Shown here: positions 1-25,829 of the stretch, piece after piece | How positions within the stretch are numbered: the first letter of the stretch is position 1 | Layout: every line of letters starts with the position of its first letter | Virus record (IMG/VR): IMGVR_UViG_2802429220_000017 | Source of the DNA: a virus | Taxonomy: Duplodnaviria; Heunggongvirae; Uroviricota; Caudoviricetes | Length of the DNA: 25,829 nucleotides | Direction: 5' to 3' (one strand) | Notes under the pieces: model-generated | Seen by the model: the letters and a program-made list of their open reading frames with translations, nothing else | Told to the model about the DNA's origin: nothing | Database searches by the model: none | Position numbers and translations under genes: made by a program

Positions 1-216
1 ATGAAATACATGGATAAGTTAACAACGGGTGTCGCCTATGGTACCTCAGCCGGTAGTGCCGGGTACTGGTTTTTACAGTTTCTCGATAAAGTCACGCCCT
101 CACAGTGGGCGGCAATAGGTGTGCTGGGTAGTCTGGTATTTGGCCTGCTGACGTACCTGACAAACCTTTATTTTAAGATTAAAGAAGACAGGCGTAAGGC
201 TGCGAGAGGAGAGTAA
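1..216 (+). CDS. S: Class II holin (pinholin, phage 21 S21-like); 71 aa with two hydrophobic segments and a charged C-terminal tail
   Basis: Protein closely resembles the recalled 71-aa S21 pinholin/EssD sequence (..[34 protein letters not shown]). Sits directly upstream of an endolysin. ORF begins at window position 1, so upstream context is missing. Confidence 0.85.
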
Positions 217-220
217 GACA

Positions 221-439
221 ATGACTAAAAACTATGAACTGATTGTGAAAGGGACCCGCAATTTTGAGAATAAAGTTACGGTAATCTTAACGTTACAGGA
301 CAAAGAACGTTTTGCCGGTGAAATTTTTGATCTGAACATCAACCTTGAGCGACTTGAAGGAGCTGGCTTGGATTATTATGAAGTTACTGCGGTAAAACAT
401 GCCAAACAGTTCTTGAGAGATTTGGCTGAAAAAATATAA
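221..439 (+). CDS. Hypothetical 72-aa protein inserted between holin and endolysin; no recognisable family, no TM segment
   Basis: Intact ORF in the track. Strong SD (GAGGAGAG) about 8 nt upstream of the ATG, 4 nt after the holin stop. Markedly AT-rich compared with flanking lysis genes. Confidence 0.6.
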   Translation: MTKNYELIVKGTRNFENKVTVILTLQDKERFAGEIFDLNINLERLEGAGLDYYEVTAVKHAKQFLRDLAEKI

Positions 440-458
440 AGCGGCATTACTGCCGCTT
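440..458. terminator. Putative bidirectional intrinsic terminator between the two convergent small ORFs
   Basis: Inverted repeat AGCGGCA-ttac-TGCCGCT immediately after the stop at 439, flanked by A/T-rich sequence on both sides. Confidence 0.45.
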
Positions 459-463
459 AGAAA

Positions 464-670
464 TTATTCAATGTCTGGTAGCTTATCAAAGATTTCGGAT
501 ACTCTTATATTTGTCATATAAGCAAATTGAGATTCTGCCAGCTCTTTGGGTGATTTTCCTGCTTTTTCTGAGCCGAAAATTGTTTCTAAAGCCAGCATGT
601 TATATTTGAGAACCTCTTCTCGAGTTTTACCTGATAATTTTGCGGTAACAGCAATATAAAAAGGCAACAC
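464..670 (-). CDS. Hypothetical small protein (68 aa from a GTG start; 44 aa if the internal ATG is used), convergent with the preceding ORF
   Basis: Track ORF on the reverse strand. An in-frame TAA lies just upstream of the GTG, so the start is ambiguous. AT-rich; no family recognised. Confidence 0.45.
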   Translation of the reverse strand: MLPFYIAVTAKLSGKTREEVLKYNMLALETIFGSEKAGKSPKELAESQFAYMTNIRVSEIFDKLPDIE

Positions 671-5532: not shown

Positions 5533-7040
5533 TGGCAATTCTTGATGATGTGATTGGCGTTTTTTCACCAGGATGGAAAGCGGCAAGGCTGCGTTCCCGT
5601 GCGGTGATCCAGGCTTATGAGGCCGTAAAAACGACGCGGACACACAAAGCCCGGCGGGAAAACCGAACTGCCGACCAGTTAAGCCAGTACGGGGCCGTGT
5701 CGTTACGTGAGCAGGCCCGTTACCTTGATAACAACCACGATCTGGTTATTGGTGTATTTGACAAGCTGGAAGAACGGGTGGTGGGGAAAAACGGGATTAT
5801 TGTCGAGCCACATCCGGTATTACGCAATGGGGCCATTGCCCGTGATCTGGCAGCGGAGATACGCACCCGATGGAGTGAATGGTCTGTCAGTCCGGAAGTC
5901 ACCGGGCAGTTTACCCGTCCGATGCTGGAACGTCTGATGCTGCGTACCTGGCTGCGCGATGGTGAGGTGTTTGCCCAGATGGTTTCCGGGCGCATAAACA
6001 GCCTGACGCCTTCTGCCGGTGTTCATTTCTGGCTGGAGGCGCTCGAGCCGGACTTTATTCCCATGACCAGTGATGAGAGCAACAGGCTGAATCAGGGCGT
6101 GTTTGTTGATGACTGGGGGCGTCCCGAAAAATATCTGGTGTATAAAAGCCGTCCCGTATCCGGGCGGCAGATGGAAACCAAAGAAGTGGATGCAGAGCGA
6201 ATGCTGCATCTTAAATTTGTTCGCCGTCTGCACCAGATGCGCGGGACGTCTTTGTTGTCCGGTGTGCTGATCCGCCTCAGTGCCCTGAAAGAGTATGAAG
6301 ATTCTGAGCTGACTGCAGCAAGGATCGCCGCTGCTCTGGGGATGTACATCCGCAAAGGCGACGGGCAGAGCTATGAACCGGATGGTAATGGCAGCAAGGA
6401 GAATGAACGCGAGCTTACCATTCAGCCAGGCATTATTTACGACGATCTGAAACCCGGCGAAGAAATCGGAATGGTGAAGTCGGATCGTCCCAATCCTAAC
6501 CTTGAAACTTTTCGTAATGGTCAGTTGCGTGCCGTGGCGGCGGGCAGTCGTCTGAGTTTTTCCAGTACGGCACGCAACTATAACGGCACTTACAGCGCCC
6601 AGCGTCAGGAACTGGTTGAGTCTACTGATGGCTACCTGATCCTGCAGGACTGGTTTATTGGTGCCGTCACCCGCCCGATGTATCGTGCCTGGCTGAAACA
6701 GGCTGTGGCATCCGGTGTTATCAGGCTACCCCGCGATCTTGACCGTTCTTCACTGTATACCGCGGTGTATTCCGGACCAGTGATGCCGTGGATTGACCCT
6801 GTTAAGGAGGCTGAGGCCTGGAAAATCCAGATTCGTGGTGGAGCGGCGACAGAATCAGACTGGGTACGTGCTGGTGGTCGTAATCCGGATGATGTCAAAC
6901 GTCGGCGCAAGGCCGAAATTGATGAAAACCGCAAGCTGGATCTGGTATTTGATACTGATCCGGCCAGTGATAAAGGAGGCAGCAGTGCCGCAACGAAACG
7001 ACAGGAGCCGCAGCACACCGACGACCAGTCCGAAGAATAA
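5532..7040 (+). CDS. Portal protein (lambda-type portal family)
   Basis: About 500-aa protein immediately after W and before the protease/capsid gene, with an acidic C-terminus. Family assigned mainly from position and size; the sequence differs from recalled lambda B. Start taken at the ATG overlapping the W stop rather than the track's upstream start. Confidence 0.8.
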   Translation: MAILDDVIGVFSPGWKAARLRSRAVIQAYEAVKTTRTHKARRENRTADQLSQYGAVSLREQARYLDNNHDLVIGVFDKLEERVVGKNGIIVEPHPVLRNGAIARDLAAEIRTRWSEWSVSPEVTGQFTRPMLERLMLRTWLRDGEVFAQMVSGRINSLTPSAGVHFWLEALEPDFIPMTSDESNRLNQGVFVDDWGRPEKYLVYKSRPVSGRQMETKEVDAERMLHLKFVRRLHQMRGTSLLSGVLIRLSALKEYEDSELTAARIAAALGMYIRKGDGQSYEPDGNGSKENERELTIQPGIIYDDLKPGEEIGMVKSDRPNPNLETFRNGQLRAVAAGSRLSFSSTARNYNGTYSAQRQELVESTDGYLILQDWFIGAVTRPMYRAWLKQAVASGVIRLPRDLDRSSLYTAVYSGPVMPWIDPVKEAEAWKIQIRGGAATESDWVRAGGRNPDDVKRRRKAEIDENRKLDLVFDTDPASDKGGSSAATKRQEPQHTDDQSEE

Positions 7041-7053
7041 TTCCTGGTTCAGG

Positions 7054-9012
7054 ATGCAGGCTGGTCACCAGAGTGACGCGGATATTTATATTTATGACGA
7101 GATTGGTTTCTGGGGTGTTACAGCGAAGCAGTTTATCAGTGATCTGAATGCACTGGGCGATATCACCCACATTAATCTCCATATTAATTCACCGGGTGGC
7201 GATGTCTTTGAAGGCATCGCCATTTTTAATGCGCTGAAAACACATGGTGCGTCCATTACCGTTTATGTCGACGGTGTGGCGGCGTCAATGGCGTCGGTCA
7301 TTGCGATGGTGGGAAACCCGGTCATTATGCCGGAAAACACCTTCATGATGATTCATAAACCATTTGGCTTTACGGGCGGTGATGCGGAAGACATGCGCAC
7401 CTATGCCGACCTGCTCGATAAGGTTGAGGCGGTTCTGTTACCCGCTTATGCACAGAAAACCGGGAAAACCACCGATGAAATTGCTGCCATGCTGGCGGAT
7501 GAGACCTGGATGTCCGGTGCCGAATGTCTGGCACATGGATTTGCTGATCAGGTAACGCCAGCCGTTAAGGCAATGGCATGTATTCAGTCAAAACGTACAG
7601 AGGAATTTAAAAAGATGCCGGAATCCATTCGAAACATGATTACTCCGCCACGCAACAGTGCTCCACGCGTACAGGATAATGAACCTGTAGCCTCCCGGAC
7701 GCCAGTGCAGGCAGCAGCACCCGTGGTGGATGAAAACAGTATCCGTGCGCAGGTACTGGCAGAGCAAAAAGCGCGTGTAAACGGTATTAATGATTTGTTT
7801 GCCATGTTTGGCGGGCGTTATCAGACGCTGCAGGCTCAGTGTCTTGCCGATCCTGAATGTTCGCTGGAGCAGGCCCGCGAAAAGCTGTTGAACGAGATGG
7901 GGCGCGAGTCCACGCCATCCAATAAAAATACCCCGGCTCATATTTATGCCGGTAACGGTAATTTTGTGGGGGACGGGATCCGCCAGGCGCTGATGGCGCG
8001 TGCCGGATTTGAAAAAACCGAACGTGATAATGTCTACAACGGGATGACCCTGCGTGAATATGCTCGTATGTCACTGACTGAACGGGGGATTGGGGTTTCC
8101 AGTTATAACCCGATGCAGATGGTCGGTGCGGCGTTCACACACAGTACGTCTGACTTCGGTAATATTCTGCTGGATGTTGCGAACAAAGCCATTCTGCAGG
8201 GCTGGGAAGATGCCCCTGAAACCTATGAACAGTGGACGCGGAAAGGTCAGTTGTCTGATTTTAAAATTGCCCATCGTGTGGGTATGGGGGGCTTCAGTGC
8301 TCTGCGTCAGGTGCGTGAAGGGGCGGAATATAAATACGTCACCACCGGAGATAAACAGGCCACTATTGCACTGGCGACCTATGGCGAGCTGTTCAGTATC
8401 ACCCGTCAGGCCATTATCAATGATGATCTGAATATGCTGACCGATGTCCCGATGAAACTGGGTCGTGCGGCGAAATCCACTATTGCCGATCTGGTTTATG
8501 CCATTCTGACGTCTAACCCGAAAATATCCACAGATAATGTAAGTCTGTTCGATAAAGCGAAACATGCAAACGTACTGGAGAGCGCTGCAATGGACGTGGC
8601 ATCGCTGGATAAAGCCCGCCAGTTGATGCGTGTTCAGAAAGAGGGGGAGCGTCATCTGAATATTCGTCCTGCGTTCGTACTGGTACCGACGGCGATGGAG
8701 TCTGTTGCTAACCAGGTCATTCGCTCCTCAAGTGTCAAGGGGGCTGACATTAACGCCGGTATTATTAACCCGGTGAAAGATTTTGCGACCGTTATTGCAG
8801 AGCCTCGTCTTGATGATAACAGCCAGACCACTTTCTACCTGGCTGCGTCCAAAGGCTCCGATACGATTGAAGTGGCTTATCTCAACGGTGTGGATACGCC
8901 ATATATTGATCAGATGGAGGGCTTCAGTGTGGATGGCGTGACAACGAAAGTGCGTATTGACGCCGGTGTCGCGCCAGTTGATCACCGCGGTCTGGTGAAA
9001 TGTACGGCGTAA
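7054..9012 (+). CDS. Fused prohead protease (ClpP/S49-like) - scaffold - major capsid protein (HK97-fold), one 652-aa ORF
   Basis: N-terminal protease-like motifs (HINSPGGDVFEGIAIFNALK...VDGVAASMASVIAMVG). A central Ala/Gln-rich linker. A roughly 330-aa C-terminal region typical of major capsid proteins. Start taken at the in-frame ATG at 7054 just after the portal stop; the track ORF extends spuriously upstream. Confidence 0.75.
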   Translation: MQAGHQSDADIYIYDEIGFWGVTAKQFISDLNALGDITHINLHINSPGGDVFEGIAIFNALKTHGASITVYVDGVAASMASVIAMVGNPVIMPENTFMMIHKPFGFTGGDAEDMRTYADLLDKVEAVLLPAYAQKTGKTTDEIAAMLADETWMSGAECLAHGFADQVTPAVKAMACIQSKRTEEFKKMPESIRNMITPPRNSAPRVQDNEPVASRTPVQAAAPVVDENSIRAQVLAEQKARVNGINDLFAMFGGRYQTLQAQCLADPECSLEQAREKLLNEMGRESTPSNKNTPAHIYAGNGNFVGDGIRQALMARAGFEKTERDNVYNGMTLREYARMSLTERGIGVSSYNPMQMVGAAFTHSTSDFGNILLDVANKAILQGWEDAPETYEQWTRKGQLSDFKIAHRVGMGGFSALRQVREGAEYKYVTTGDKQATIALATYGELFSITRQAIINDDLNMLTDVPMKLGRAAKSTIADLVYAILTSNPKISTDNVSLFDKAKHANVLESAAMDVASLDKARQLMRVQKEGERHLNIRPAFVLVPTAMESVANQVIRSSSVKGADINAGIINPVKDFATVIAEPRLDDNSQTTFYLAASKGSDTIEVAYLNGVDTPYIDQMEGFSVDGVTTKVRIDAGVAPVDHRGLVKCTA

Positions 9013-17636: not shown

Positions 17637-20600
17637 ATGGGTAAAGGCAGCAGTAAGGGGCATACCCCGCGCGAAGCGAAGGATAATCTCAAATCAACGC
17701 AGTTGCTGAGTGTGATTGATGCCATCAGTGAAGGGCCGATTGAAGGTCCGGTGGATGGATTAAAAAGCGTGCTGCTGAACAGTACGCCGGTGCTGGACAC
17801 TGAGGGGAATACCAACATCTCCGGTGTCACGGTGGTGTTCCGGGCAGGTGAGCAGGAGCAGACTCCGCCGGAGGGATTTGAATCCTCTGGCTCCGAGACG
17901 GTGCTGGGTACGGAAGTGAAATATGACACGCCGATCACCCGGACCATCACGTCTGCAAATATCGACCGTCTGCGCTTTACCTTCGGTGTGCAGGCACTGG
18001 TGGAAACCACCTCAAAGGGGGACAGGAATCCGTCGGAAGTCCGCCTGCTGGTTCAGATACAACGTAACGGTGGCTGGGTGACGGAAAAAGACATCACCAT
18101 TAAGGGCAAAACCACCTCGCAGTATCTGGCCTCGGTGGTGGTGGATAACCTGCCTCCGCGCCCGTTCAATATCCGGATGCGCAGGATGACACCGGACAGC
18201 ACCACAGACCAGCTGCAGAACAAAACGCTCTGGTCGTCATACACCGAAATCATCGATGTGAAACAGTGCTACCCGAACACGGCACTGGTCGGCGTGCAGG
18301 TGGACTCGGAACAGTTCGGCAGCCAGCAGGTGAGCCGTAATTATCATCTTCGCGGGCGCATTCTGCAGGTGCCGTCGAACTATAACCCGCAGACGCGGCA
18401 ATACAGCGGTATCTGGGACGGAACGTTTAAGCCAGCATACAGCAACAACATGGCCTGGTGTCTGTGGGATATGCTGACCCATCCCCGCTACGGCATGGGG
18501 AAGCGTCTCGGTGCGGCGGATGTGGACAAATGGGCGCTGTATGTCATCGGCCAGAATTGCGACCAGTCGGTGCCGGATGGCTTTGGTGGCACGGAGCCTC
18601 GCATCACCTGTAATGCTTACCTGACCACACAGCGCAAGGCGTGGGATGTGCTCAGTGATTTCTGCTCGGCGATGCGCTGTATGCCGGTATGGAACGGGCA
18701 GACGCTGACGTTCGTGCAGGACCGACCGTCGGATAAGGTGTGGACCTATAACCGCAGTAATGTGGTGATGCCGGATGATGGCGCGCCGTTCCGCTACAGC
18801 TTCAGCGCCCTGAAGGACCGCCATAATGCCGTTGAAGTGAACTGGATTGACCCGAATAACGGCTGGGAGACGGCGACAGAGCTTGTGGAGGACACGCAGG
18901 CCATTGCCCGTTACGGTCGTAACGTCACGAAGATGGATGCCTTTGGCTGTGCCAGCCGGGGGCAGGCACACCGCGCCGGGCTGTGGCTGATTAAAACGGA
19001 GCTGCTGGAAACGCAGACCGTGGACTTCAGCGTGGGCGCAGAAGGGCTTCGCCATGTACCGGGCGATGTCATTGAAATCTGCGATGATGACTATGCGGGT
19101 ATCAGCATCGGCGGGCGCGTGCTGGCGGTGAACAGCCAGACGCGGACACTGACGCTCGACCGTGAAATCATGCTGCCATCCTCCGGAACCACGCTGATAA
19201 GCCTGGTTGACGGAAATGGCAATCCGGTCAGCGTGGAGGTCCAGTCCGTCACCGACGGCGTGAAGGTGAAAGTGAGCCGGGTTCCTGACGGCGTTGCTGA
19301 ATACAGCGTGTGGGGGCTGAAGCTGCCGACGCTGCGCCAGCGCCTGTTCCGCTGTGTGAGTATCCGTGAGAACGACGACGGCACGTATGCCATCACTGCC
19401 GTGCAGCATGTACCGGAGAAGGAAGCCATCGTGGATAACGGGGCGCACTTTGACGGCGACCAGAGCGGAACGGTGAACGGTGTCACGCCGCCAGCAGTTC
19501 AGCACCTGACCGCAGAAGTCACCGCAGACAGCGGGGAATATCAGGTGCTGGCGCGCTGGGACACGCCGAAGGTGGTGAAGGGCGTGAGCTTCCTGCTTCG
19601 CCTGACCGTGGCTGCGGATGATGGCAGTGAACGGCTGGTCAGCACGGCCCGGACGACGGAAACTACATACCGCTTCAGGCAACTGGCGCTGGGAAATTAC
19701 AGGCTGACAGTCCGGGCGGCAAATGCCTGGGGGCAGCAGGGCGATCCGGCATCGGTATCGTTCCGGATTGCCGCACCGGCAGCGCCGTCGCGGATTGAGC
19801 TGACGCCGGGCTATTTTCAGATAACCGCCACGCCCCATCTTGCCGTTTATGATCCGACGGTACAGTTTGAGTTCTGGTTCTCGGAAAAGCGGATTGCGGA
19901 TATCAGGCAGGTTGAAACCACAGCCCGCTATCTTGGCACGGCGCTGTACTGGATAGCTGCCAGTATCAATATTAAGCCGGGCCATGATTATTATTTTTAC
20001 GTTCGCAGTGTGAACACCGTTGGCAAATCGGCATTCGTGGAGGCTGTCGGTCGGGCGAGCGATGATGCGGAAGGTTACCTGGATTTTTTCAAAGGCCAGA
20101 TAACTGAATCCCATCTCGGCAAGGAGCTGCTGGAAAAAGTCGACCTGACGGAGGATAACGCCAGCAGACTGGATCAGTTTTCGAAAGAGTGGAAAGACGC
20201 CAACGATAAATGGAATGCCATGTGGGGCGTCAAAATTGAGCAGACCGAAGACGGCAGGCATTATGTCGCGGGGCTTGGCCTCAGCATGGAGGATACGGAG
20301 GAAGGTAAACTGAGCCAGTTCCTGGTTGCCGCTAACCGTATCGCGTTTATTGACCCGGCAAACGGGAATGAAACGCCGATGTTTGTGGCGCAGGGCAACC
20401 AGATATTCATGAACGAAGTGTTCCTGAAGTATCTGACGGCTCCCACCATTACCAGCGGCGGCAATCCTCCGGTATTTTCCCTGACACCGGACGGGCGGCT
20501 GACGGCGAAAAATGCCGATATCAGCGGTAACGTGAATGCGAACTCCGGGACGCTCAACAACGTCACGGTAAATGAAAACTGTACGATTAAGGGTATGCTG

Positions 20601-21050
20601 GAGGCGAACCAGGTCAGAGGTGACTTCGTTAAAACTGTCTCCAAATCATTCCCGAAACAGGCTGGTACGTGGGGTAACACGGAAACACCAAACGGGACGG
20701 TTACAGTCACCATCAGTGATGATCATAACTTTGACCGTCAAATCATTATTCCGCCCATTATCTTTAACGGAATAGCGTATAGCGATCCGGGAAGTGGTAA
20801 TAACCCGGGAGGTACAAGATACACGGGTTATGGTTTTGAAGTTCGCAAAAACGGTGTATTAATCGCATCCAGAGAAACTAAAGGGGCCATTCCCGGTAGC
20901 TACAGTGCGGTTATTGATATGCCGAGTGGCAGGGGAAGTGTCACTCTGGAGTTTAAGGTTTTCCATAAAGGCAATCAGTGGGCAGGTAATATCACCGACT
21001 GTACGGTGATTGTGACCAAAAAAGCCGCTTCCGGCATCAGTATTCGTTGA
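17637..21050 (+). CDS. J: Tail tip central fibre / host specificity protein J
   Basis: 1137 aa. Resembles recalled lambda gpJ along most of its length; the final ~130 aa diverge. GGAG SD 8 nt upstream. Confidence 0.93.
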
Positions 21051-21119: not shown

Positions 21120-21719
21120 ATGCGTAAAGTTTGTGCAGCAATTTTGTCCGCAGCCATTTGTCTGGCCGTATCCGGTGCGCCTGCATGGGCGTCTGAACAT
21201 CAGTCCACGCTGAGCGCGGGGTATCTTCATGCCTCGACCAACGTTCCCGGCAGCGATGATCTGAACGGGATTAACGTGAAATACCGTTATGAGTTTACGG
21301 ATACGCTGGGGATGGTGACGTCATTCAGCTATGCAGGAGACAAGAATCGCCAGCTGACCCGTTACAGCGATACCCGCTGGCATGAAGATTCCGTGCGTAA
21401 CCGCTGGTTCAGCGTGATGGCGGGGCCGTCTGTGCGCGTGAATGAATGGTTCAGTGCTTATGCGATGGCGGGTGTGGCTTACAGCCGTGTTTCGACGTTC
21501 TCCGGGGATTATCTCCGCGTAACTGACAACAAGGGGAAAACGCACGATGTGCTGACCGGAAGTGATGGCGGTCGCCACAGCAACACGTCTCTGGCGTGGG
21601 GGGCTGGCGTGCAGTTTAACCCGACCGAATCCGTGGCCATTGACCTTGCTTATGAAGGTTCCGGCAGTGGCGACTGGCGCACTGACGGTTTCATCGTGGG
21701 TGTCGGTTATAAATTCTGA
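21120..21719 (+). CDS. lom: Outer membrane protein Lom (Ail/Lom/PagC family beta-barrel), moron
   Basis: Signal peptide (AAILSAAICLAVSGAPAWA). C-terminal YEGSGSGDWRTDGFIVGVGYKF matches recalled lambda Lom. Own SD and flanking terminators. Confidence 0.92.
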   Translation: MRKVCAAILSAAICLAVSGAPAWASEHQSTLSAGYLHASTNVPGSDDLNGINVKYRYEFTDTLGMVTSFSYAGDKNRQLTRYSDTRWHEDSVRNRWFSVMAGPSVRVNEWFSAYAMAGVAYSRVSTFSGDYLRVTDNKGKTHDVLTGSDGGRHSNTSLAWGAGVQFNPTESVAIDLAYEGSGSGDWRTDGFIVGVGYKF

Positions 21720-21773: not shown

Positions 21774-21783
21774 TGGAGTGGAT

Positions 21784-24168
21784 ATGGCAGCAGTAAAAAT
21801 CTCAGGTGTGCTGAAAGATGGTGCGGGAAAACCAATACAGAACTGCACTATTCAACTGAAGGCAAAGCGTAACAGCACCACGGTACTGGTGAACACGGTG
21901 GCCTCTGAAAATCCGGATGAAGCCGGGCGTTACAGCATGGATGTTGAGTATGGCCAGTACAGCGTCATCCTGCTGGTTGAAGGTTTTCCGCCTTCACATG
22001 CCGGGACCATTACCGTCTATGAAGGCTCCAGACCAGGTACGCTGAATGATTTTCTCGGTGCCATGACGGAAGATGATGTCATGCCGGAGGCATTGCGTCG
22101 TTTTGAGGCAATGGTGGAAGAAGCGGCACGCAACGCTGAAGCCGCCTCTCAGAGCGCAGCGGCGGCAAAGAAATCCGAAACTGCAGCGGCATCATCGAAG
22201 AACGCGGCGAAAACCTCAGAAACGAATGCAGCTAACAGCGCACAGGCGGCAGCGGCCTCGCAGACTGCATCGGCAAATTCCGCGACAGCAGCTAAAAAAT
22301 CAGAAACCAACGCGAAAAATAGCGAAACAGCCGCAAAGACGAGCGAAACCAATGCAAAGTCCAGCCAGACGGCAGCGAAAACCAGCGAAACGAATGCCAA
22401 AGCCAGTGAAACTGCGGCGAAAAACAGCCAGGCTGCAGCAGCTGAAAGTGAGAGCGCGGCAGCCGGTTCTGCGACTTCAGCAGCCGGATCAGCAACTGCT
22501 GCGGCTAACAGCCAGAAAGCCGCGAAGACGAGTGAAACTAACGCAAAGTCCAGCCAGACGGCAGCGAAGACCAGCGAAACGAATGCTAAAGCCAGCGAAA
22601 CTGCGGCGAAAAACAGTCAGGATGCAGCAGCCGAAAGCGAGAGTGCCGCAGCTGGTTCTGCAAGTGCGGCGGCTTCTTCTGCCACTGCATCAGCCAACAG
22701 TCAAAAAGCTGCAAAAACCAGTGAAACCAACGCAAAGGCGAGCGAGACTGCGGCTGCTAACTCGGCGAAAGCATCCGCTGCAAGCCAGACGGCTGCAAAA
22801 GCAAGTGAAGACGCAGCCAGGGAGTACGCAAGCCAGGCAGCAGAGCCGTATAAATATGTCTTACAGCCGCTTCCTGATGTGTGGATACCGTTTAACGATT
22901 CACTGGATATGATTACGGGCTTTTCGCCATCATATAAAAAGATTGTTATTGGTGATGATGAAATAACAATGCCTGGCGACAAGATTGTAAAGTTTAAACG
23001 CGCATCAAAAGCAACTTACATTAATAAATCTGGTGTGCTGACAGAGGCTGCAATCGATGAACCTCGCTTTGAAAAGTATGGATTGCTGATTGAAGGGCAG
23101 CGTACAAACCTGTTAATAAACAGCACAAATCCATCAAAGTGGAACAAGTCATCAAATATGATTTTAAATACATCAGGTGTAGATGATTTTGGTTTCCAGT
23201 ACGCAAAATTCACATTAAAACCAGAAATGGTGGGGCAAACCTCAGCCATTTCTATTGTCACAGTATCTGGAAGCAAAGGATATGATGTTACCGGCGATGA
23301 AAAGTATGTAACTATCTCATGCAGGGTACAAAGTGGGACTCCAAATTTAAGATGTCGATTACGATTTGAAGAATATGATGGATCTACCTACAAATTTCTG
23401 GGTGATGCTTACTTAAATATGACAGATTTATCGATTGATAAAACTGGCGGCGCTGCAAGTCGTATTACTGCAAGGGCTGTTAAAAATGAAGCAAGCAAAT
23501 GGATTTTCTTTGAGGCAACAATTAAGGCACTTGATACAGAAAATATGATCGGTGCGATGGTGCAATATGCACCACCAAAAGGGGGAAGCACTGGTGCAGA
23601 TGATTATATTTATGTTGCAACTCCTCAGGTCGAAGGCGGTTCGTGCGCTTCTTCGTTTATTATTACTGAGGCAACGCCAGTCACAAGAGCCAGTGATATG
23701 GTGAATATACCAACAAATAACAATATCGGTACACCACCTTTAACATTTCTAGCTGAAGTTCATACAAACTGGAACGAAACGCCAAATGCAGCACCACGAA
23801 TTTTTGATACCAGTGGTGGGAGCACAACTCCGGGTCAATATATAAGTGTTGCTATTAGTTCAACATTATTTCCTGGTGTTACGATGTACAATAAAAACGG
23901 TAGTACAGTAGCCGCCGTATCGCCAGTATTATTTGAACAAAAATCTGTTCTTGGATTTGTTTTAAATGAATCTGGTAATGTGCATTTCGTTAGCAATGCT
24001 CAGCATGGAACTCCTAAAACTACGGATCATGTCGGTGTTAAATCTGGTTATTTCTTCAGGATTGGTGGGCAGACTAATAGCGGCCTACGTCATCTTTTCG
24101 GTCACATTCGTAATTTTCGTATATGGCATAAAGAATTAACCGATGCGCAAATGGGAGAGGTAATATAA
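21784..24168 (+). CDS. stf: Side tail fibre protein (Stf-like): lambda-type N-terminal anchor, repetitive Ala-rich shaft, divergent AT-rich C-terminal receptor-binding region
   Basis: N-terminus MAAVKISGVLKDGAGKPIQNCTIQLKA..GRYSMDVEYGQYSVIL..GFPPSHAGTITVYE matches the recalled lambda Stf N-terminus. Shaft has tandem KTSETNAKxSxTAAK repeats. C-terminal end (..HLFGHIRNFRIWHKELTDAQM) suggests a lectin/jellyroll-type tip; this is low-confidence motif recognition. Confidence 0.88.
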   Translation: MAAVKISGVLKDGAGKPIQNCTIQLKAKRNSTTVLVNTVASENPDEAGRYSMDVEYGQYSVILLVEGFPPSHAGTITVYEGSRPGTLNDFLGAMTEDDVMPEALRRFEAMVEEAARNAEAASQSAAAAKKSETAAASSKNAAKTSETNAANSAQAAAASQTASANSATAAKKSETNAKNSETAAKTSETNAKSSQTAAKTSETNAKASETAAKNSQAAAAESESAAAGSATSAAGSATAAANSQKAAKTSETNAKSSQTAAKTSETNAKASETAAKNSQDAAAESESAAAGSASAAASSATASANSQKAAKTSETNAKASETAAANSAKASAASQTAAKASEDAAREYASQAAEPYKYVLQPLPDVWIPFNDSLDMITGFSPSYKKIVIGDDEITMPGDKIVKFKRASKATYINKSGVLTEAAIDEPRFEKYGLLIEGQRTNLLINSTNPSKWNKSSNMILNTSGVDDFGFQYAKFTLKPEMVGQTSAISIVTVSGSKGYDVTGDEKYVTISCRVQSGTPNLRCRLRFEEYDGSTYKFLGDAYLNMTDLSIDKTGGAASRITARAVKNEASKWIFFEATIKALDTENMIGAMVQYAPPKGGSTGADDYIYVATPQVEGGSCASSFIITEATPVTRASDMVNIPTNNNIGTPPLTFLAEVHTNWNETPNAAPRIFDTSGGSTTPGQYISVAISSTLFPGVTMYNKNGSTVAAVSPVLFEQKSVLGFVLNESGNVHFVSNAQHGTPKTTDHVGVKSGYFFRIGGQTNSGLRHLFGHIRNFRIWHKELTDAQMGEVI
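22180..22810 (+). repeat. In-frame tandem repeats in the stf shaft; two ~146-bp copies spaced 189 bp apart (about 22331-22476 and 22520-22665) plus degenerate flanking copies
   Basis: Direct comparison of the two blocks (GCCGCAAAGACGAGCGAAACCAATGCAAAGTCCAGCCAGACGGCAGCGAAAACCAGCGAAACGAATGC... versus GCCGCGAAGACGAGTGAAACTAACGCAAAGTCCAGCCAGACGGCAGCGAAGACCAGCGAAACGAATGC...) shows about 90% identity. Confidence 0.8.
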
Positions 24169-24449
24169 TGCGAGATTTAATTATCAAATTCACAGACAAG
24201 GCCGACTTTTCGGCCTTTATGGATAGCATTGGTTATTATGATGACGAGATGATGCAGAACGATGTTCTCATTGATGTAATAGGTGACGTATACAAAGAAA
24301 CAGGCGAACTTACTGAAGATGGCGAGCCGGTATGTGTTAAGGAAGACGGATATTTTGTAAACGTGCGCATCATTAATGATTCGCAAATATCGTCATTATT
24401 CGATGAATACGCGGTTGTAGTTGAACATCAACTTCGTGACTGGATGTGA
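24168..24449 (+). CDS. Hypothetical 93-aa acidic protein, translationally coupled to stf (possible fibre assembly/accessory protein)
   Basis: ATG overlaps the stf stop (TAATG). AT-rich. No family recognised. Confidence 0.55.
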   Translation: MRDLIIKFTDKADFSAFMDSIGYYDDEMMQNDVLIDVIGDVYKETGELTEDGEPVCVKEDGYFVNVRIINDSQISSLFDEYAVVVEHQLRDWM

Positions 24450-24458
24450 GGGAGACAA

Positions 24459-25499
24459 ATGGCTACATCGACCGTAATTCCTGATGACATCAAAACGCTA
24501 AAATCGGATGTTAGTAAATTAAAAACCGATCAAGGAAACTACGCAACAAAATCTTATGTAGACAATAAAACAACATGGAATGGTTATTGCAATGTAATCT
24601 ATGATCAAAAAACATTGCCAACAACTGGTACTATATTCAGCGGTAAGCTGCATTTGTCAAATAAGACTGGTGAAACGGAAAACGCTTATAGTGACATATA
24701 TACCAGAAAAAATATTGATGGTACTAAAGATACAATGACGAGGATCGTCACACATAACGGGACAAAAGGTATCTTTTGGGACTTTAGTGATCTTTACGGC
24801 GGAACATTAATTTTTCCAGGCAGTGATGGTTACCTCAAGATGGGGAACTGTCTCATGTCGTATGGTGTGCGGGGAAGTAACGCGCTTATTAAGTTTGATT
24901 ACACCGACTCCTTACAGATCAAATATGCCAATCATGGGTCGACCATGACATTAAACACACAGGGAACCGCTCACGCTGGCGTAACAACTCGACTATGGGG
25001 CAATTCTAGCCGTCCGGTTGTTTATGAAGTTGGTGTAGATGGTGAGGCTTTTATATTCTTCGGTCAAAAACAAACAGATGGCACATATGGATTTGCTGTT
25101 AATGGTGTATGTCAAGCGACCGCATTTAACCAGACCTCTGACCGAGACCTGAAAGATAATATTCAGGTGATCGATAATGCAACCGACCGCATTCGTAAAA
25201 TGAACGGCTATACATACACGCTTAAAGAAAACGGTATGCCTTACGCTGGTGTTATTGCACAAGAAGCCCTGGAAGCCATCCCCGAAGCCGTAGGGTCTAT
25301 GATGAAATATCCAGACGGTGGGAGTGGATTAGATGGAGAAGAAGGTGAACGGTATTACACTGTAGATTATTCTGGTGTTACTGGCTTGCTTGTTCAGGCA
25401 GCCAGAGAGTCAGACGACAGGATAACAGCACTGGAAGAAGAAAACGCAGAATTAAGACAAAGATTATCTGCAATTGAGGCGGCGCTTGCGTCTAAATAA
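24459..25499 (+). CDS. Tail fibre/spike protein with C-terminal intramolecular chaperone (peptidase S74-like) domain
   Basis: C-terminal region SDRDLKDNIQ...GYTY.LKENG...GVIAQEALEAIPEAV...YTVDYSGVTGLLVQAARESDDRITALEEENAELRQRL matches the conserved pattern of autoproteolytic chaperone domains of phage fibres and endosialidases. GAGGGAGA SD upstream. Confidence 0.75.
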   Translation: MATSTVIPDDIKTLKSDVSKLKTDQGNYATKSYVDNKTTWNGYCNVIYDQKTLPTTGTIFSGKLHLSNKTGETENAYSDIYTRKNIDGTKDTMTRIVTHNGTKGIFWDFSDLYGGTLIFPGSDGYLKMGNCLMSYGVRGSNALIKFDYTDSLQIKYANHGSTMTLNTQGTAHAGVTTRLWGNSSRPVVYEVGVDGEAFIFFGQKQTDGTYGFAVNGVCQATAFNQTSDRDLKDNIQVIDNATDRIRKMNGYTYTLKENGMPYAGVIAQEALEAIPEAVGSMMKYPDGGSGLDGEEGERYYTVDYSGVTGLLVQAARESDDRITALEEENAELRQRLSAIEAALASK

Positions 25500-25505
25500 T
25501 ATTAA

Positions 25506-25527
25506 GGGGCCGAGCGCCCCGTTATAT
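25506..25527 (+). terminator. Weak hairpin after the fibre gene
   Basis: GGGGC-cgagc-GCCCC stem followed by GTTATATT (poor U-tract). Confidence 0.3.
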
Positions 25528-25535
25528 TGGGTAGG

Positions 25536-25829
25536 ATGAAAATGGATATAACACCTTTCCTTCATGCTCTTTGTGCTGTGGCTGCGCAGCTACTGATTGG
25601 TCTTTTTACCGGGAACTGGGCTTACGGAGCGATAGCCGGTTGTACGTTCTTCATTGCGCGTGAACACACCCAGGCAGAATATCGCTGGATTGAAATGTTC
25701 GGGCATGGCAAGCGAATGAATATGCCGTGGTGGGGCGGTTTTGATCCACGTGCATGGGATGTAGCAAGCCTGATGGATTTTGCTGTGCCGGTGATAGCGT
25801 GTCTGCTGGTCTGGCTGGTATTTCGTTGA
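25536..25829 (+). CDS. Predicted multi-pass membrane protein, 3'-truncated by the window end
   Basis: ORF runs off the window. At least three hydrophobic segments (FLHALCAVAAQLLIGLF, AYGAIAGCTFFIA, FAVPVIACLLVWLVF). Start ambiguous (TTG 25527, ATG 25536 or ATG 25542). Confidence 0.5.
   Translation: MKMDITPFLHALCAVAAQLLIGLFTGNWAYGAIAGCTFFIAREHTQAEYRWIEMFGHGKRMNMPWWGGFDPRAWDVASLMDFAVPVIACLLVWLVFR

What the first reader, a model, noticed from the sequence alone, without database searches (positions are those of the whole stretch)
25527..25829. Membrane protein gene immediately downstream of the fibre genes, cut off by the window end
Small inner-membrane proteins at this position in lambdoid prophages are often cargo, for example superinfection-exclusion or receptor-modifying proteins. 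The product has at least three TM segments and is not a family I recognise. The ORF is incomplete, so nothing can be said about its full length or partners.
Basis: inference. Interest (0 to 1): 0.45.

Follow-up and report, generated by a model that had tools for sequence, protein, structure and literature searches.

The report
Complete small phage membrane protein gene
The last gene of this prophage's tail-fibre operon is a complete, not truncated, 95-residue inner-membrane protein from a widespread, strongly conserved family that nobody has characterised, and in many unrelated phages that family sits directly behind the receptor-binding genes.

Summary
The ORF is real, but it is not cut off. 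It ends with TGA on the last three bases of the window. The likely start is ATG 25542, which gives 95 aa. AlphaFold2 predicts three helices (pLDDT 93.6). Escherichia alleles are under purifying selection (pN/pS 0.11).

It belongs to PHROG 1443, function unknown. It has no match in Pfam, NCBIfam, PADLOC or PDB sequences, and no specific fold match. It occurs in 1886 of 5426 complete E. coli genomes, in phage 21 and in many lambda-like phages.

The central loop and its flanks carry near-invariant residues (H8, R40, E41, Q44, E46, R48, R58, W72, D79, P83). The positive-inside rule places this loop in the cytoplasm.

No promoter-like site separates the gene from the fibre genes, so it looks co-transcribed with the late operon. 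The window has its own P21-type holin, endolysin and Rz/Rz1, so this gene is not the holin.

In at least ten phage architectures, homologues lie directly after the last receptor-binding gene. Non-phage chromosomal copies also exist in Aeromonas and sphingomonads.

Function stays unknown. My best guess, at about 0.3, is an exclusion or receptor-pathway accessory linked to the receptor-binding genes. Overall this is a catalogued but dark family of moderate interest.

The parts
25542..25829 (+). Complete CDS, 95 aa plus TGA stop, for a three-helix inner-membrane protein of PHROG 1443. Alternative in-frame starts are ATG 25536 and TTG 25527.
   Evidence: sequence, stop at the window end; homologues annotated from the same ATG; phrog_1443, E=1.9e-57; AF2 pLDDT 93.6; pN/pS 0.11
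25533..25536 (+). Shine-Dalgarno-like AGGA, 5 nt before ATG 25542.
   Evidence: Phage 21 has AGGAGG 6 nt before the equivalent ATG and an annotated RBS.
25506..25520 (.). GC-rich hairpin GGGGCCGAGCGCCCC between the S74 fibre gene and the membrane gene. It is terminator-like on both strands but weak. It is absent from the phage 21 arrangement, which lacks the S74 gene, so I infer it belongs to the S74-fibre cassette.
   Evidence: scan; dG -13.1 kcal/mol, z = -1.1, not exceptional; absent in phage 21
24459..25499 (+). Context: 346-aa tail-fibre protein with a C-terminal Peptidase_S74 intramolecular chaperone domain. It fills a variable cassette slot directly upstream.
   Evidence: An S74 ORF lies directly upstream in 28 of 80 Escherichia-like viral loci.
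24168..24449 (+). Context: 93-aa acidic protein (phrog_1361). In Escherichia lambdoid phages it is the constant upstream companion of the membrane gene.
   Evidence: It lies within 3 kb upstream in 78 of 80 Escherichia-like viral loci and is adjacent in phage 21. It is absent outside Escherichia.
21778..24168 (+). Context: side tail fibre (stf-like, phage_tail_N domain).

Best explanation
Identity, which I consider near certain: 25542-25829 encodes a complete 95-aa, three-helix inner-membrane protein. It is the terminal gene of the late, tail-fibre operon of a lambdoid (phage 21-like) prophage, and it is a member of the uncharacterised family PHROG 1443.

Mechanism, which is inferred and carries about 0.3: it is a non-structural accessory protein that travels with receptor-binding-protein genes. 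It is made from the late transcript rather than from its own promoter. It inserts into the inner membrane with its N-terminus in the cytoplasm. A rigid, near-invariant juxtamembrane module (H8, R40-E41, Q44-E46-R48, R58, W72, D79) then sits at the cytoplasmic face. Through this module it acts on a host inner-membrane component that is conserved across Proteobacteria. The suggested result is that the infected or lysogenic cell becomes refractory to further phage adsorption or DNA entry. That could work by interfering with an inner-membrane step of surface-glycan receptor assembly, or with the inner-membrane DNA-entry route.

Shown: gene integrity, family, conservation pattern, genomic linkage, and absence of a promoter-like site.

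Inferred: topology, the target, and the exclusion phenotype.
For: Complete ORF and real gene.

Confident three-helix model.

Conservation is concentrated in residues 37-83, with R40 invariant and H8, E41, Q44, A45, E46, W72 and P83 at 90% or more across 124 diverse members.

K+R counts are 5.65 on the N-tail plus loop side against 0.54 on the other side, so the loop is placed in the cytoplasm.

Late-operon coupling:
- No promoter-like site upstream.
- A 12-nt spacer with AGGAGG in phage 21.
- Start overlapping or abutting the upstream fibre or Tfa gene in phiHAP-1, Aeromonas and Leclercia prophages.

Position directly after the last receptor-binding gene in many unrelated architectures:
- Lambdoid with an S74 fibre (window).
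- Lambdoid with a pectate-lyase spike.
- HP1/P2-like prophages.
- phiHAP-1.
- P1-like plasmid.
- Salmonella multi-tailspike cluster.
- gpJ-like giant tip protein in Comamonas.
- Inside a DGR cassette, between the VR-bearing target gene and avd.
- Desulfovibrio S74 fibre.
- A degenerate remnant after the S74 tailspike of lytic phage HC6.

Known precedent, from my own knowledge: the exclusion proteins Llp (T5) and Cor (phi80, N15, HK022) are encoded next to receptor-binding genes.
Against: - No phenotype data exist.
- No PADLOC hit.
- Exclusion proteins are usually fast-evolving and narrow in range. This family is 57-65% identical between E. coli prophages and Aeromonas or Comamonas.
- Cellular copies lie outside prophages: Aeromonas Pirin-fam-RIO1, and a sphingomonad copy next to ligA.
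- If the loop is cytoplasmic, almost nothing faces the periplasm, where most known inner-membrane exclusion proteins act.
- The protein sequence stays constant while the neighbouring receptor-binding proteins differ completely. It therefore cannot mask a specific receptor.
- No evidence of expression in lysogens.
Confidence: 0.3

Rival explanations
1. A general cellular small membrane protein, either a tiny oligomeric enzyme or a regulator of a membrane process. Phages picked it up as an auxiliary gene, and its effect is on host membrane physiology during late infection, not on phage sensitivity.
For: - Non-phage chromosomal copies with conserved synteny occur in several Aeromonas species and next to ligA, CMAS or ftsZ in sphingomonads.
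- Near-invariant His/Arg/Glu/Gln/Asp residues cluster on one membrane face, as in an active site or ligand site.
- Purifying selection is strong.
- It is also present in lytic jumbo Aeromonas phages, away from tail genes.
Against: - No similarity to any enzyme or transporter family by HMM or fold search.
- The very consistent position directly behind receptor-binding genes is not expected for a generic auxiliary gene.
- The invariant polar residues could equally be structural salt bridges.
Confidence: 0.25
2. A lysis accessory protein, holin-like, antiholin-like or a lysis-timing regulator, expressed late.
For: - It is small, membrane-embedded and late-transcribed.
- In Comamonas testosteroni it is followed by two small multi-TM ORFs and a lysozyme-like 183-aa protein.
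- In a P1-like Leclercia plasmid it precedes a 104-aa ORF and LydB.
- One downstream neighbour in the genome set is a Phage_lysozyme.
- From my own knowledge, T4 t and T7 17.5 holin genes also follow fibre genes.
Against: - The window already has a full P21-type cassette 24 kb upstream: S21 pinholin, SAR lysozyme, Rz and Rz1.
- There is no charged C-terminal tail.
- Holins do not normally show this cross-class conservation or occur as stand-alone chromosomal genes.
- Only 1 of 124 members gives a sub-threshold holin Pfam hit, E=0.0036.
Confidence: 0.1
3. A factor needed for the receptor-binding proteins themselves, for example membrane-associated assembly or maturation of fibres or spikes, or a minor virion or ejection component.
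For: - It occupies the slot directly after fibre or spike genes, where fibre chaperones are normally encoded, and often overlaps the upstream stop.
- It recurs next to S74 self-chaperoning fibres in several lineages: lambdoid prophages, HP1-like prophages of Aeromonas and Leclercia, a Desulfovibrio prophage, and as a remnant in phage HC6.
Against: - Fibre assembly is cytoplasmic, and known chaperones are soluble.
- The neighbours are structurally unrelated receptor-binding proteins (S74, pectate-lyase, Laminin_G_3, gpJ-like, DGR target), so a shared assembly need is unlikely.
- It has decayed to a remnant in viable lytic phages of the HC6 type.
- Cellular copies exist without any phage.
Confidence: 0.07
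4. A chance ORF or pseudogene fragment at the prophage edge.
For: It lies at the very end of the window, behind a terminator-like hairpin.
Against: - 564 homologues in the word-indexed search and 448 clusters at 50% identity.
- Intact in 79 of 84 Escherichia loci, with pN/pS 0.11.
- High-confidence fold.
- An SD-like motif lies upstream.
Confidence: 0.01

Closest known systems
PHROG 1443 / phage 21 CPT_21_24 'putative membrane protein' / RefSeq WP_021568063, WP_001551179 'hypothetical protein'
   Same: Full-length match, 92-97% identity, the same length (95-97 aa), and the same position after stf and the 92/93-aa ORF.
   Different: Nothing essential differs. The last few codons diverge between the 95-aa and 97-aa allele types. 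No member has a known function.
Receptor-binding-gene-adjacent exclusion lipoproteins: Llp of T5 and Cor of phi80, N15 and HK022 (from my own knowledge)
   Same: A small non-structural gene placed directly beside the receptor-binding genes.
   Different: Those are outer-membrane lipoproteins that block one specific receptor, FhuA. This protein has no lipobox: C11 is preceded by H-A-L and is not conserved. It is a polytopic inner-membrane protein, and it stays constant while the neighbouring receptor-binding proteins vary.
Inner-membrane superinfection-exclusion proteins: T4 Imm, P22 SieA (PMC10883804, seen only as a title and abstract in the list), HK97 gp15 (from my own knowledge)
   Same: Small phage-encoded inner-membrane proteins. 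HK97 gp15 also sits within the tail-gene region.
   Different: No sequence relationship was detected in any library searched. This family is far more conserved and has cellular copies. Its conserved part is predicted to face the cytoplasm.
Holins and pinholins (S21, class I holins, P1 LydA)
   Same: Small, helical membrane proteins transcribed late. Some homologues sit beside lysis genes.
   Different: The window encodes its own S21 holin, lysozyme, Rz and Rz1. There is no holin Pfam match, no charged C-terminal tail, and the 34-residue loop is highly conserved.
Small three-helix membrane enzymes such as DgkA (analogy only, from my own knowledge)
   Same: About 100 aa, three helices, and conserved acidic and basic residues at one membrane interface.

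Membership tests
PHROG 1443 (uncharacterised phage protein family) | Full-length, significant match to the family HMM | tested here: met
   E=1.9e-57, residues 3-96 against profile 1-94 of 97
Any curated family in Pfam-A, NCBIfam or PADLOC | A score above the curated cut-off | tested here: not met
   none. The best is PhoR_N at 13.3 bits against a cut-off of 27.1. In one search, 124 diverse members give only sub-threshold noise.
Holin | Match to a holin family model | tested here: not met
   1 of 124 members hits Phage_holin_8 at E=0.0036, below threshold
Holin | Sole or cognate holin next to the endolysin gene | tested here: not met
   the P21 holin S at 1-216, lysozyme 889-1422 and Rz/Rz1 lie 24 kb upstream. 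The ORF under study is not adjacent to them.
Holin | Membrane hole formation that triggers lysis | not testable with these tools
   needs expression and lysis assays
Cor / Llp-type exclusion lipoprotein | Signal peptide ending in a lipobox ([LVI][ASTVI][GAS]C) with a conserved Cys | tested here: not met
   the only early Cys (C11) is preceded by H-A-L and is replaced by I, V or L in most homologues
Moron (autonomous lysogen-expressed cargo cassette) | Its own promoter upstream and a terminator downstream | tested here: not met
   no sigma-70-like site between the upstream gene and the ORF; a 12-nt spacer in phage 21; no terminator-like site after the gene in L002 or L003. These are consensus scans only, so weak promoters are not excluded.
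Inner-membrane superinfection-exclusion proteins (Imm, SieA, gp15 type) | Blocks DNA entry of superinfecting phage when expressed alone | not testable with these tools
   this class is defined by phenotype, and no shared sequence signature exists to test
Prolipoprotein diacylglyceryl transferase (Lgt), the name carried by one UniRef entry of the Aeromonas cluster | Homology to Lgt (about 290 aa, 7 TM by my own knowledge) | tested here: not met

The most novel reading that the evidence does not exclude
PHROG 1443 is a previously unrecognised, pan-proteobacterial class of phage accessory protein that is genetically welded to receptor-binding modules of every tail type, even sitting inside a DGR cassette. 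It acts from the cytoplasmic face of the inner membrane on a universally conserved host step. Candidates are initiation or recycling of undecaprenyl-linked surface glycans, or the inner-membrane DNA-entry route. The effect would be a receptor-independent form of exclusion or self-protection, and the cellular copies would be domesticated versions.
Probability: 0.15. Interest if true: 0.7.

Novelty: new member of a known kind. Interest (0 to 1): 0.4.

Why it matters
About a third of complete E. coli genomes carry this gene, with a median of two matching places per genome, and yet nothing is known about it.

Three features make it a cheap, well-defined target for discovering either a new exclusion mechanism or a new small membrane activity. 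Conservation is extreme. Charged residues are invariant at one membrane face. The gene follows receptor-binding genes faithfully across siphoviruses, myoviruses, P1-like plasmids and DGR cassettes.

The gene could also serve as a practical marker for the 3' boundary of swappable host-range cassettes.

For the scan itself, the main result is corrective. The ORF is complete, and the window simply ends at its stop codon.

Tried and rejected
- **Family and structure searches.** Pfam, NCBIfam, PADLOC and PDB sequence searches with the single protein and with a 124-member profile gave nothing above noise.
- **Exhaustive HMM search of 1.84 billion representatives.** All 150 listed hits (of 448 with E up to 0.001) are proteins of about 60-150 aa, and none of the listed hits shows an extra domain by length.
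- **Literature.** Searches by accession, PHROG id and topic found no paper on this protein.
- **Obligate partnership with Peptidase_S74 fibres.** Rejected as a rule: 28 of 80 Escherichia-like loci and 2 of 68 species-level loci have it. It does recur in several phage lineages.
- **Obligate partnership with the 93-aa phrog_1361 protein.** True only within Escherichia.
- **The holin reading.** Rejected because the window has its own lysis cassette.
- **The lipoprotein reading.** Rejected because there is no conserved lipobox.
- **The 'Lgt' name on one database entry.** Rejected.
- **The intergenic hairpin as a strong terminator.** Not supported, z = -1.1.

Full report
**1. The observation**

The window ends ...GTA TTT CGT TGA, and the TGA occupies 25827-25829. 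The ORF list gives 25527-25829 as a closed ORF of 100 codons, counted from the first possible start, TTG. The gene is therefore complete, and the statement that the window end cuts it off is wrong.

Two in-frame ATGs follow the TTG, at 25536 and 25542. ATG 25542 is preceded by AGGA at a 5-nt spacing. RefSeq uses this ATG in near-identical E. coli prophages, annotated as 95 aa in L001 and 97 aa in L002. The curated phage 21 record also uses it. The family alignment starts at M-D, with D2 invariant among close homologues. I take the gene to be 25542-25829, 95 aa.

No ORF of 40 aa or more overlaps it on the other strand.

The window begins exactly at the ATG of a P21-type holin gene and ends exactly at this stop codon. 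Many IMG/VR prophage contigs likewise stop 3-15 nt after the homologous gene. I infer that the window is a gene-boundary-trimmed prophage piece.

**2. It is a real gene**

- A word-indexed search of 5.8 billion proteins found 564 homologues.
- An exhaustive HMM search of 1.84 billion cluster representatives found 448 clusters at E up to 0.001. All 150 listed hits are proteins of about 60-150 aa.
- In 84 Escherichia-type loci, 79 carry an intact 95- or 97-aa ORF. Over 49 distinct alleles, pS is 0.128 and pN is 0.0145, a ratio of 0.11.
- DNA matching the gene and its upstream flank (window 25400-25829) occurs in 1886 of 5426 complete E. coli genomes, with a median of two places per genome.
- It is also found in phage 21, many lambda-like 'ev' phages and ECOR-derived phages.

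**3. What the protein looks like**

AlphaFold2, run on a 63-sequence alignment, gives a confident model with mean pLDDT 93.6. The three helices are at 4-23, 26-53 and 74-94.

Hydropathy shows two strongly hydrophobic segments, roughly 5-23 and 76-94, and a weaker one at 26-39. The weaker segment continues as an amphipathic helix, REHTQAEYRWIEMF.

Conservation is very uneven. The helices vary in sequence, apart from Gly positions. Residues 37-83 are almost fixed. Across 124 diverse members, R40 is invariant, and H8, E41, Q44, A45, E46, W72 and P83 are at 90% or more. Y47, R48, R58, P62 and D79 are also highly conserved.

K+R counts are 5.65 for the N-tail plus central loop, against 0.54 for the helix 1-2 turn plus C-tail. 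By the positive-inside rule, the N-terminus and the conserved loop are cytoplasmic and the C-terminus is periplasmic. This is an inference, not a measurement. The phage 21 record cites a different prediction, TMHMM with 2 TMDs.

On this topology, H8, R40/E41 and D79 all lie at the same membrane interface as the loop.

**4. Similarity to known families**

There is none.

- Pfam, NCBIfam and PADLOC gave no hit.
- PHROGs assigns it to phrog_1443, 'unknown function'.
- PDB sequences gave nothing, whether searched by the single sequence or by the profile.
- Foldseek against PDB and against viral models gave nothing significant.
- Scanning 124 diverse members individually against Pfam gave only sub-threshold noise. 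The commonest was the PhoR N-terminal region, in 5 members with a best E of 0.0015.
- Source names are all 'hypothetical protein'. One Aeromonas UniRef entry is called Lgt, which I reject on length and on the absence of any Lgt match.
- Four literature searches found nothing on this protein.

**5. Expression context**

The window is a lambdoid late operon:

- P21-type pinholin at 1-216.
- A DUF1327 ORF and a reverse ORF.
- Lysozyme at 889-1422, whose hydrophobic N-terminus suggests a SAR endolysin.
- Rz/Rz1.
- ORFs that I did not analyse but take, from position and size, to be the terminase-to-J structural genes.
- J at 17637-21050.
- Lom at 21120-21719.
- stf at 21778-24168.
- The 93-aa ORF.
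- The S74 fibre.
- The membrane gene.

Between the S74 fibre stop (25499) and the ORF there are 42 nt. They contain a 5-bp GC hairpin, which a consensus scan flags as terminator-like on both strands. Its folding energy is unremarkable, z = -1.1. No promoter-like site lies there.

In phage 21 the S74 gene is absent. There the membrane gene starts 12 nt after the 92-aa ORF, behind AGGAGG, with no promoter- or terminator-like site.

In phiHAP-1 and in the Aeromonas and Leclercia HP1-like prophages, the start overlaps or abuts the stop of the preceding fibre or Tfa gene.

The simplest reading is co-transcription, and often translational coupling, with the late genes. A self-contained moron is less likely. 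Weak promoters cannot be excluded by a consensus scan.

**6. Genomic linkage, the most informative result**

Phage-borne homologues lie directly after the last receptor-binding gene in many unrelated architectures:

- Escherichia lambdoid phages, in the order stf, 93-aa ORF, variable cassette, gene. The cassette is an S74 fibre in 28 of 80 loci.
- A Citrobacter lambdoid prophage, after a pectate-lyase tailspike.
- HP1/P2-like prophages of Aeromonas and Leclercia.
- Halomonas phage phiHAP-1, between Tfa and the sheath gene.
- A P1-like Leclercia plasmid, after the fibre genes and before a 104-aa ORF plus LydB.
- A Salmonella contig, between two tailspike genes.
- A Comamonas testosteroni prophage, after a 2520-aa gpJ-like protein and before a probable lysis cassette.
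- A Desulfovibrio MAG, after an S74 fibre.
- A Chelativorans prophage, after a 'tail protein'.
- A diversity-generating retroelement in Comamonas nitrativorans. There the gene sits between the target gene, whose 3' end carries the variable repeat, and avd, the template repeat and the reverse transcriptase. The 119-nt repeats are 89% identical.
- Lytic siphophages of the HC6 type, which keep only a frame-broken remnant after an S74 tailspike.

There are exceptions:

- Jumbo Aeromonas phages carry the gene next to a gene annotated as helicase/terminase.
- A P22-like Aeromonas phage carries it between the coat gene and gp10.
- In Aeromonas species the chromosomal order Pirin, gene, RIO1, lpxL-like is clearly cellular.
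- Sphingomonad copies lie beside ligA, a cyclopropane-fatty-acid synthase or ftsZ.

**7. Interpretation**

The protein stays constant while its receptor-binding neighbours differ in fold and specificity. It therefore cannot mask a particular receptor. Any target must be conserved from alpha- to delta-proteobacteria.

The predicted cytoplasmic location of the conserved module argues for action on the inner face of the membrane.

The holin reading fails in this window because a complete P21-type lysis cassette is present. The lipoprotein reading fails because no lipobox is conserved.

I rank the options as follows:

| Reading | Confidence |
|---|---|
| Exclusion or receptor-pathway accessory linked to receptor-binding genes and made with the late genes | about 0.3 |
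| General small membrane enzyme or regulator, borrowed as an auxiliary gene | about 0.25 |
| Lysis accessory | about 0.1 |
| Fibre-assembly or virion role | about 0.07 |
| Chance ORF | below 0.01 |

The remainder is unassigned. Only wet experiments can separate these readings. They are listed under next steps.

**8. Verdict**

The gene is a near-identical member of a catalogued but uncharacterised family. It is ordinary as a sequence. It is moderately interesting as biology because of its abundance, its extreme conservation and its linkage to receptor-binding modules.

Noticed in passing
window 1-216 and 25827-25829: The window starts exactly at the ATG of a P21-type pinholin gene and ends exactly at the stop of the last late gene. 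Many IMG/VR prophage contigs end 3-15 nt after the homologous gene. I infer that the window is a gene-boundary-trimmed prophage late region.
   Followed up: partly
window 221-670: About 670 nt separate the holin (1-216) from the endolysin (889-1422). This stretch holds a 72-aa DUF1327 ORF (221-439, +) and a 68-aa ORF on the opposite strand (464-670, no Pfam hit). It may be a small insertion inside the lysis cassette.
   Followed up: partly
window 24168-24449: In Escherichia lambdoid phages, the 93-aa acidic protein (phrog_1361, unknown function) lies within 3 kb upstream of the membrane gene in 78 of 80 loci. The slot between the two is a variable cassette, holding the S74 fibre, a 234-aa ORF, or nothing as in phage 21. 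No Tfa homologue was seen in this region.
   Followed up: partly
L040 4785-8054 (Comamonas nitrativorans): A diversity-generating retroelement carries the family gene inserted between the target gene (VR 5810-5928) and bAvd (6305-6691). The template repeat is at 6697-6815, 89% identical to the VR. A 354-aa ORF at 6990-8054 sits where the reverse transcriptase would be; I did not scan it. L041 (Pigmentiphaga) has the same ORF layout.
   Followed up: partly
L163 3461-3660 (Escherichia phage HC6; also ST1UNAM, ZCEC08, PBM-3): An unannotated, frame-broken remnant of the family gene (…RRRANIPWWGGFDWRAWDLPSLLD) lies directly after an 859-aa tailspike with an S74-like C-terminus. This suggests that the 3' end of S74 receptor-binding genes and this gene move together as one recombination unit.
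   Followed up: partly
L007 6300-7521 (Comamonas testosteroni): Downstream of the family gene are two small multi-TM ORFs (125 and 99 aa) and a 183-aa phrog_3108 protein with a lysozyme-like LQESRF…GFWQFE motif. This is probably an unannotated lysis cassette.
   Followed up: partly
window 22150-22900 (within stf): The side tail fibre has a long Ala/Ser/Thr/Lys-rich repetitive stretch (…AAKTSETNAKSSQTAAKTSETNAKASETAAKNSQ…). It generates spurious long ORFs in other frames and on the opposite strand.
   Followed up: no
L003 4386-7835 (phage 21): In phage 21 the gene is followed, on the opposite strand, by a sitABCD iron/manganese transporter cargo operon. In other E. coli prophages it is followed by DinI plus integrase at dusA, or by a P-loop NTPase next to thrS. 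The gene therefore marks the boundary between the conserved late operon and variable cargo or the att site.
   Followed up: partly
L014 (contig labelled Collinsella sp. MAG): A 2.8-kb contig binned as the Actinobacterium Collinsella carries a copy 96% identical to the E. coli gene. This is almost certainly a binning contaminant.
   Followed up: no
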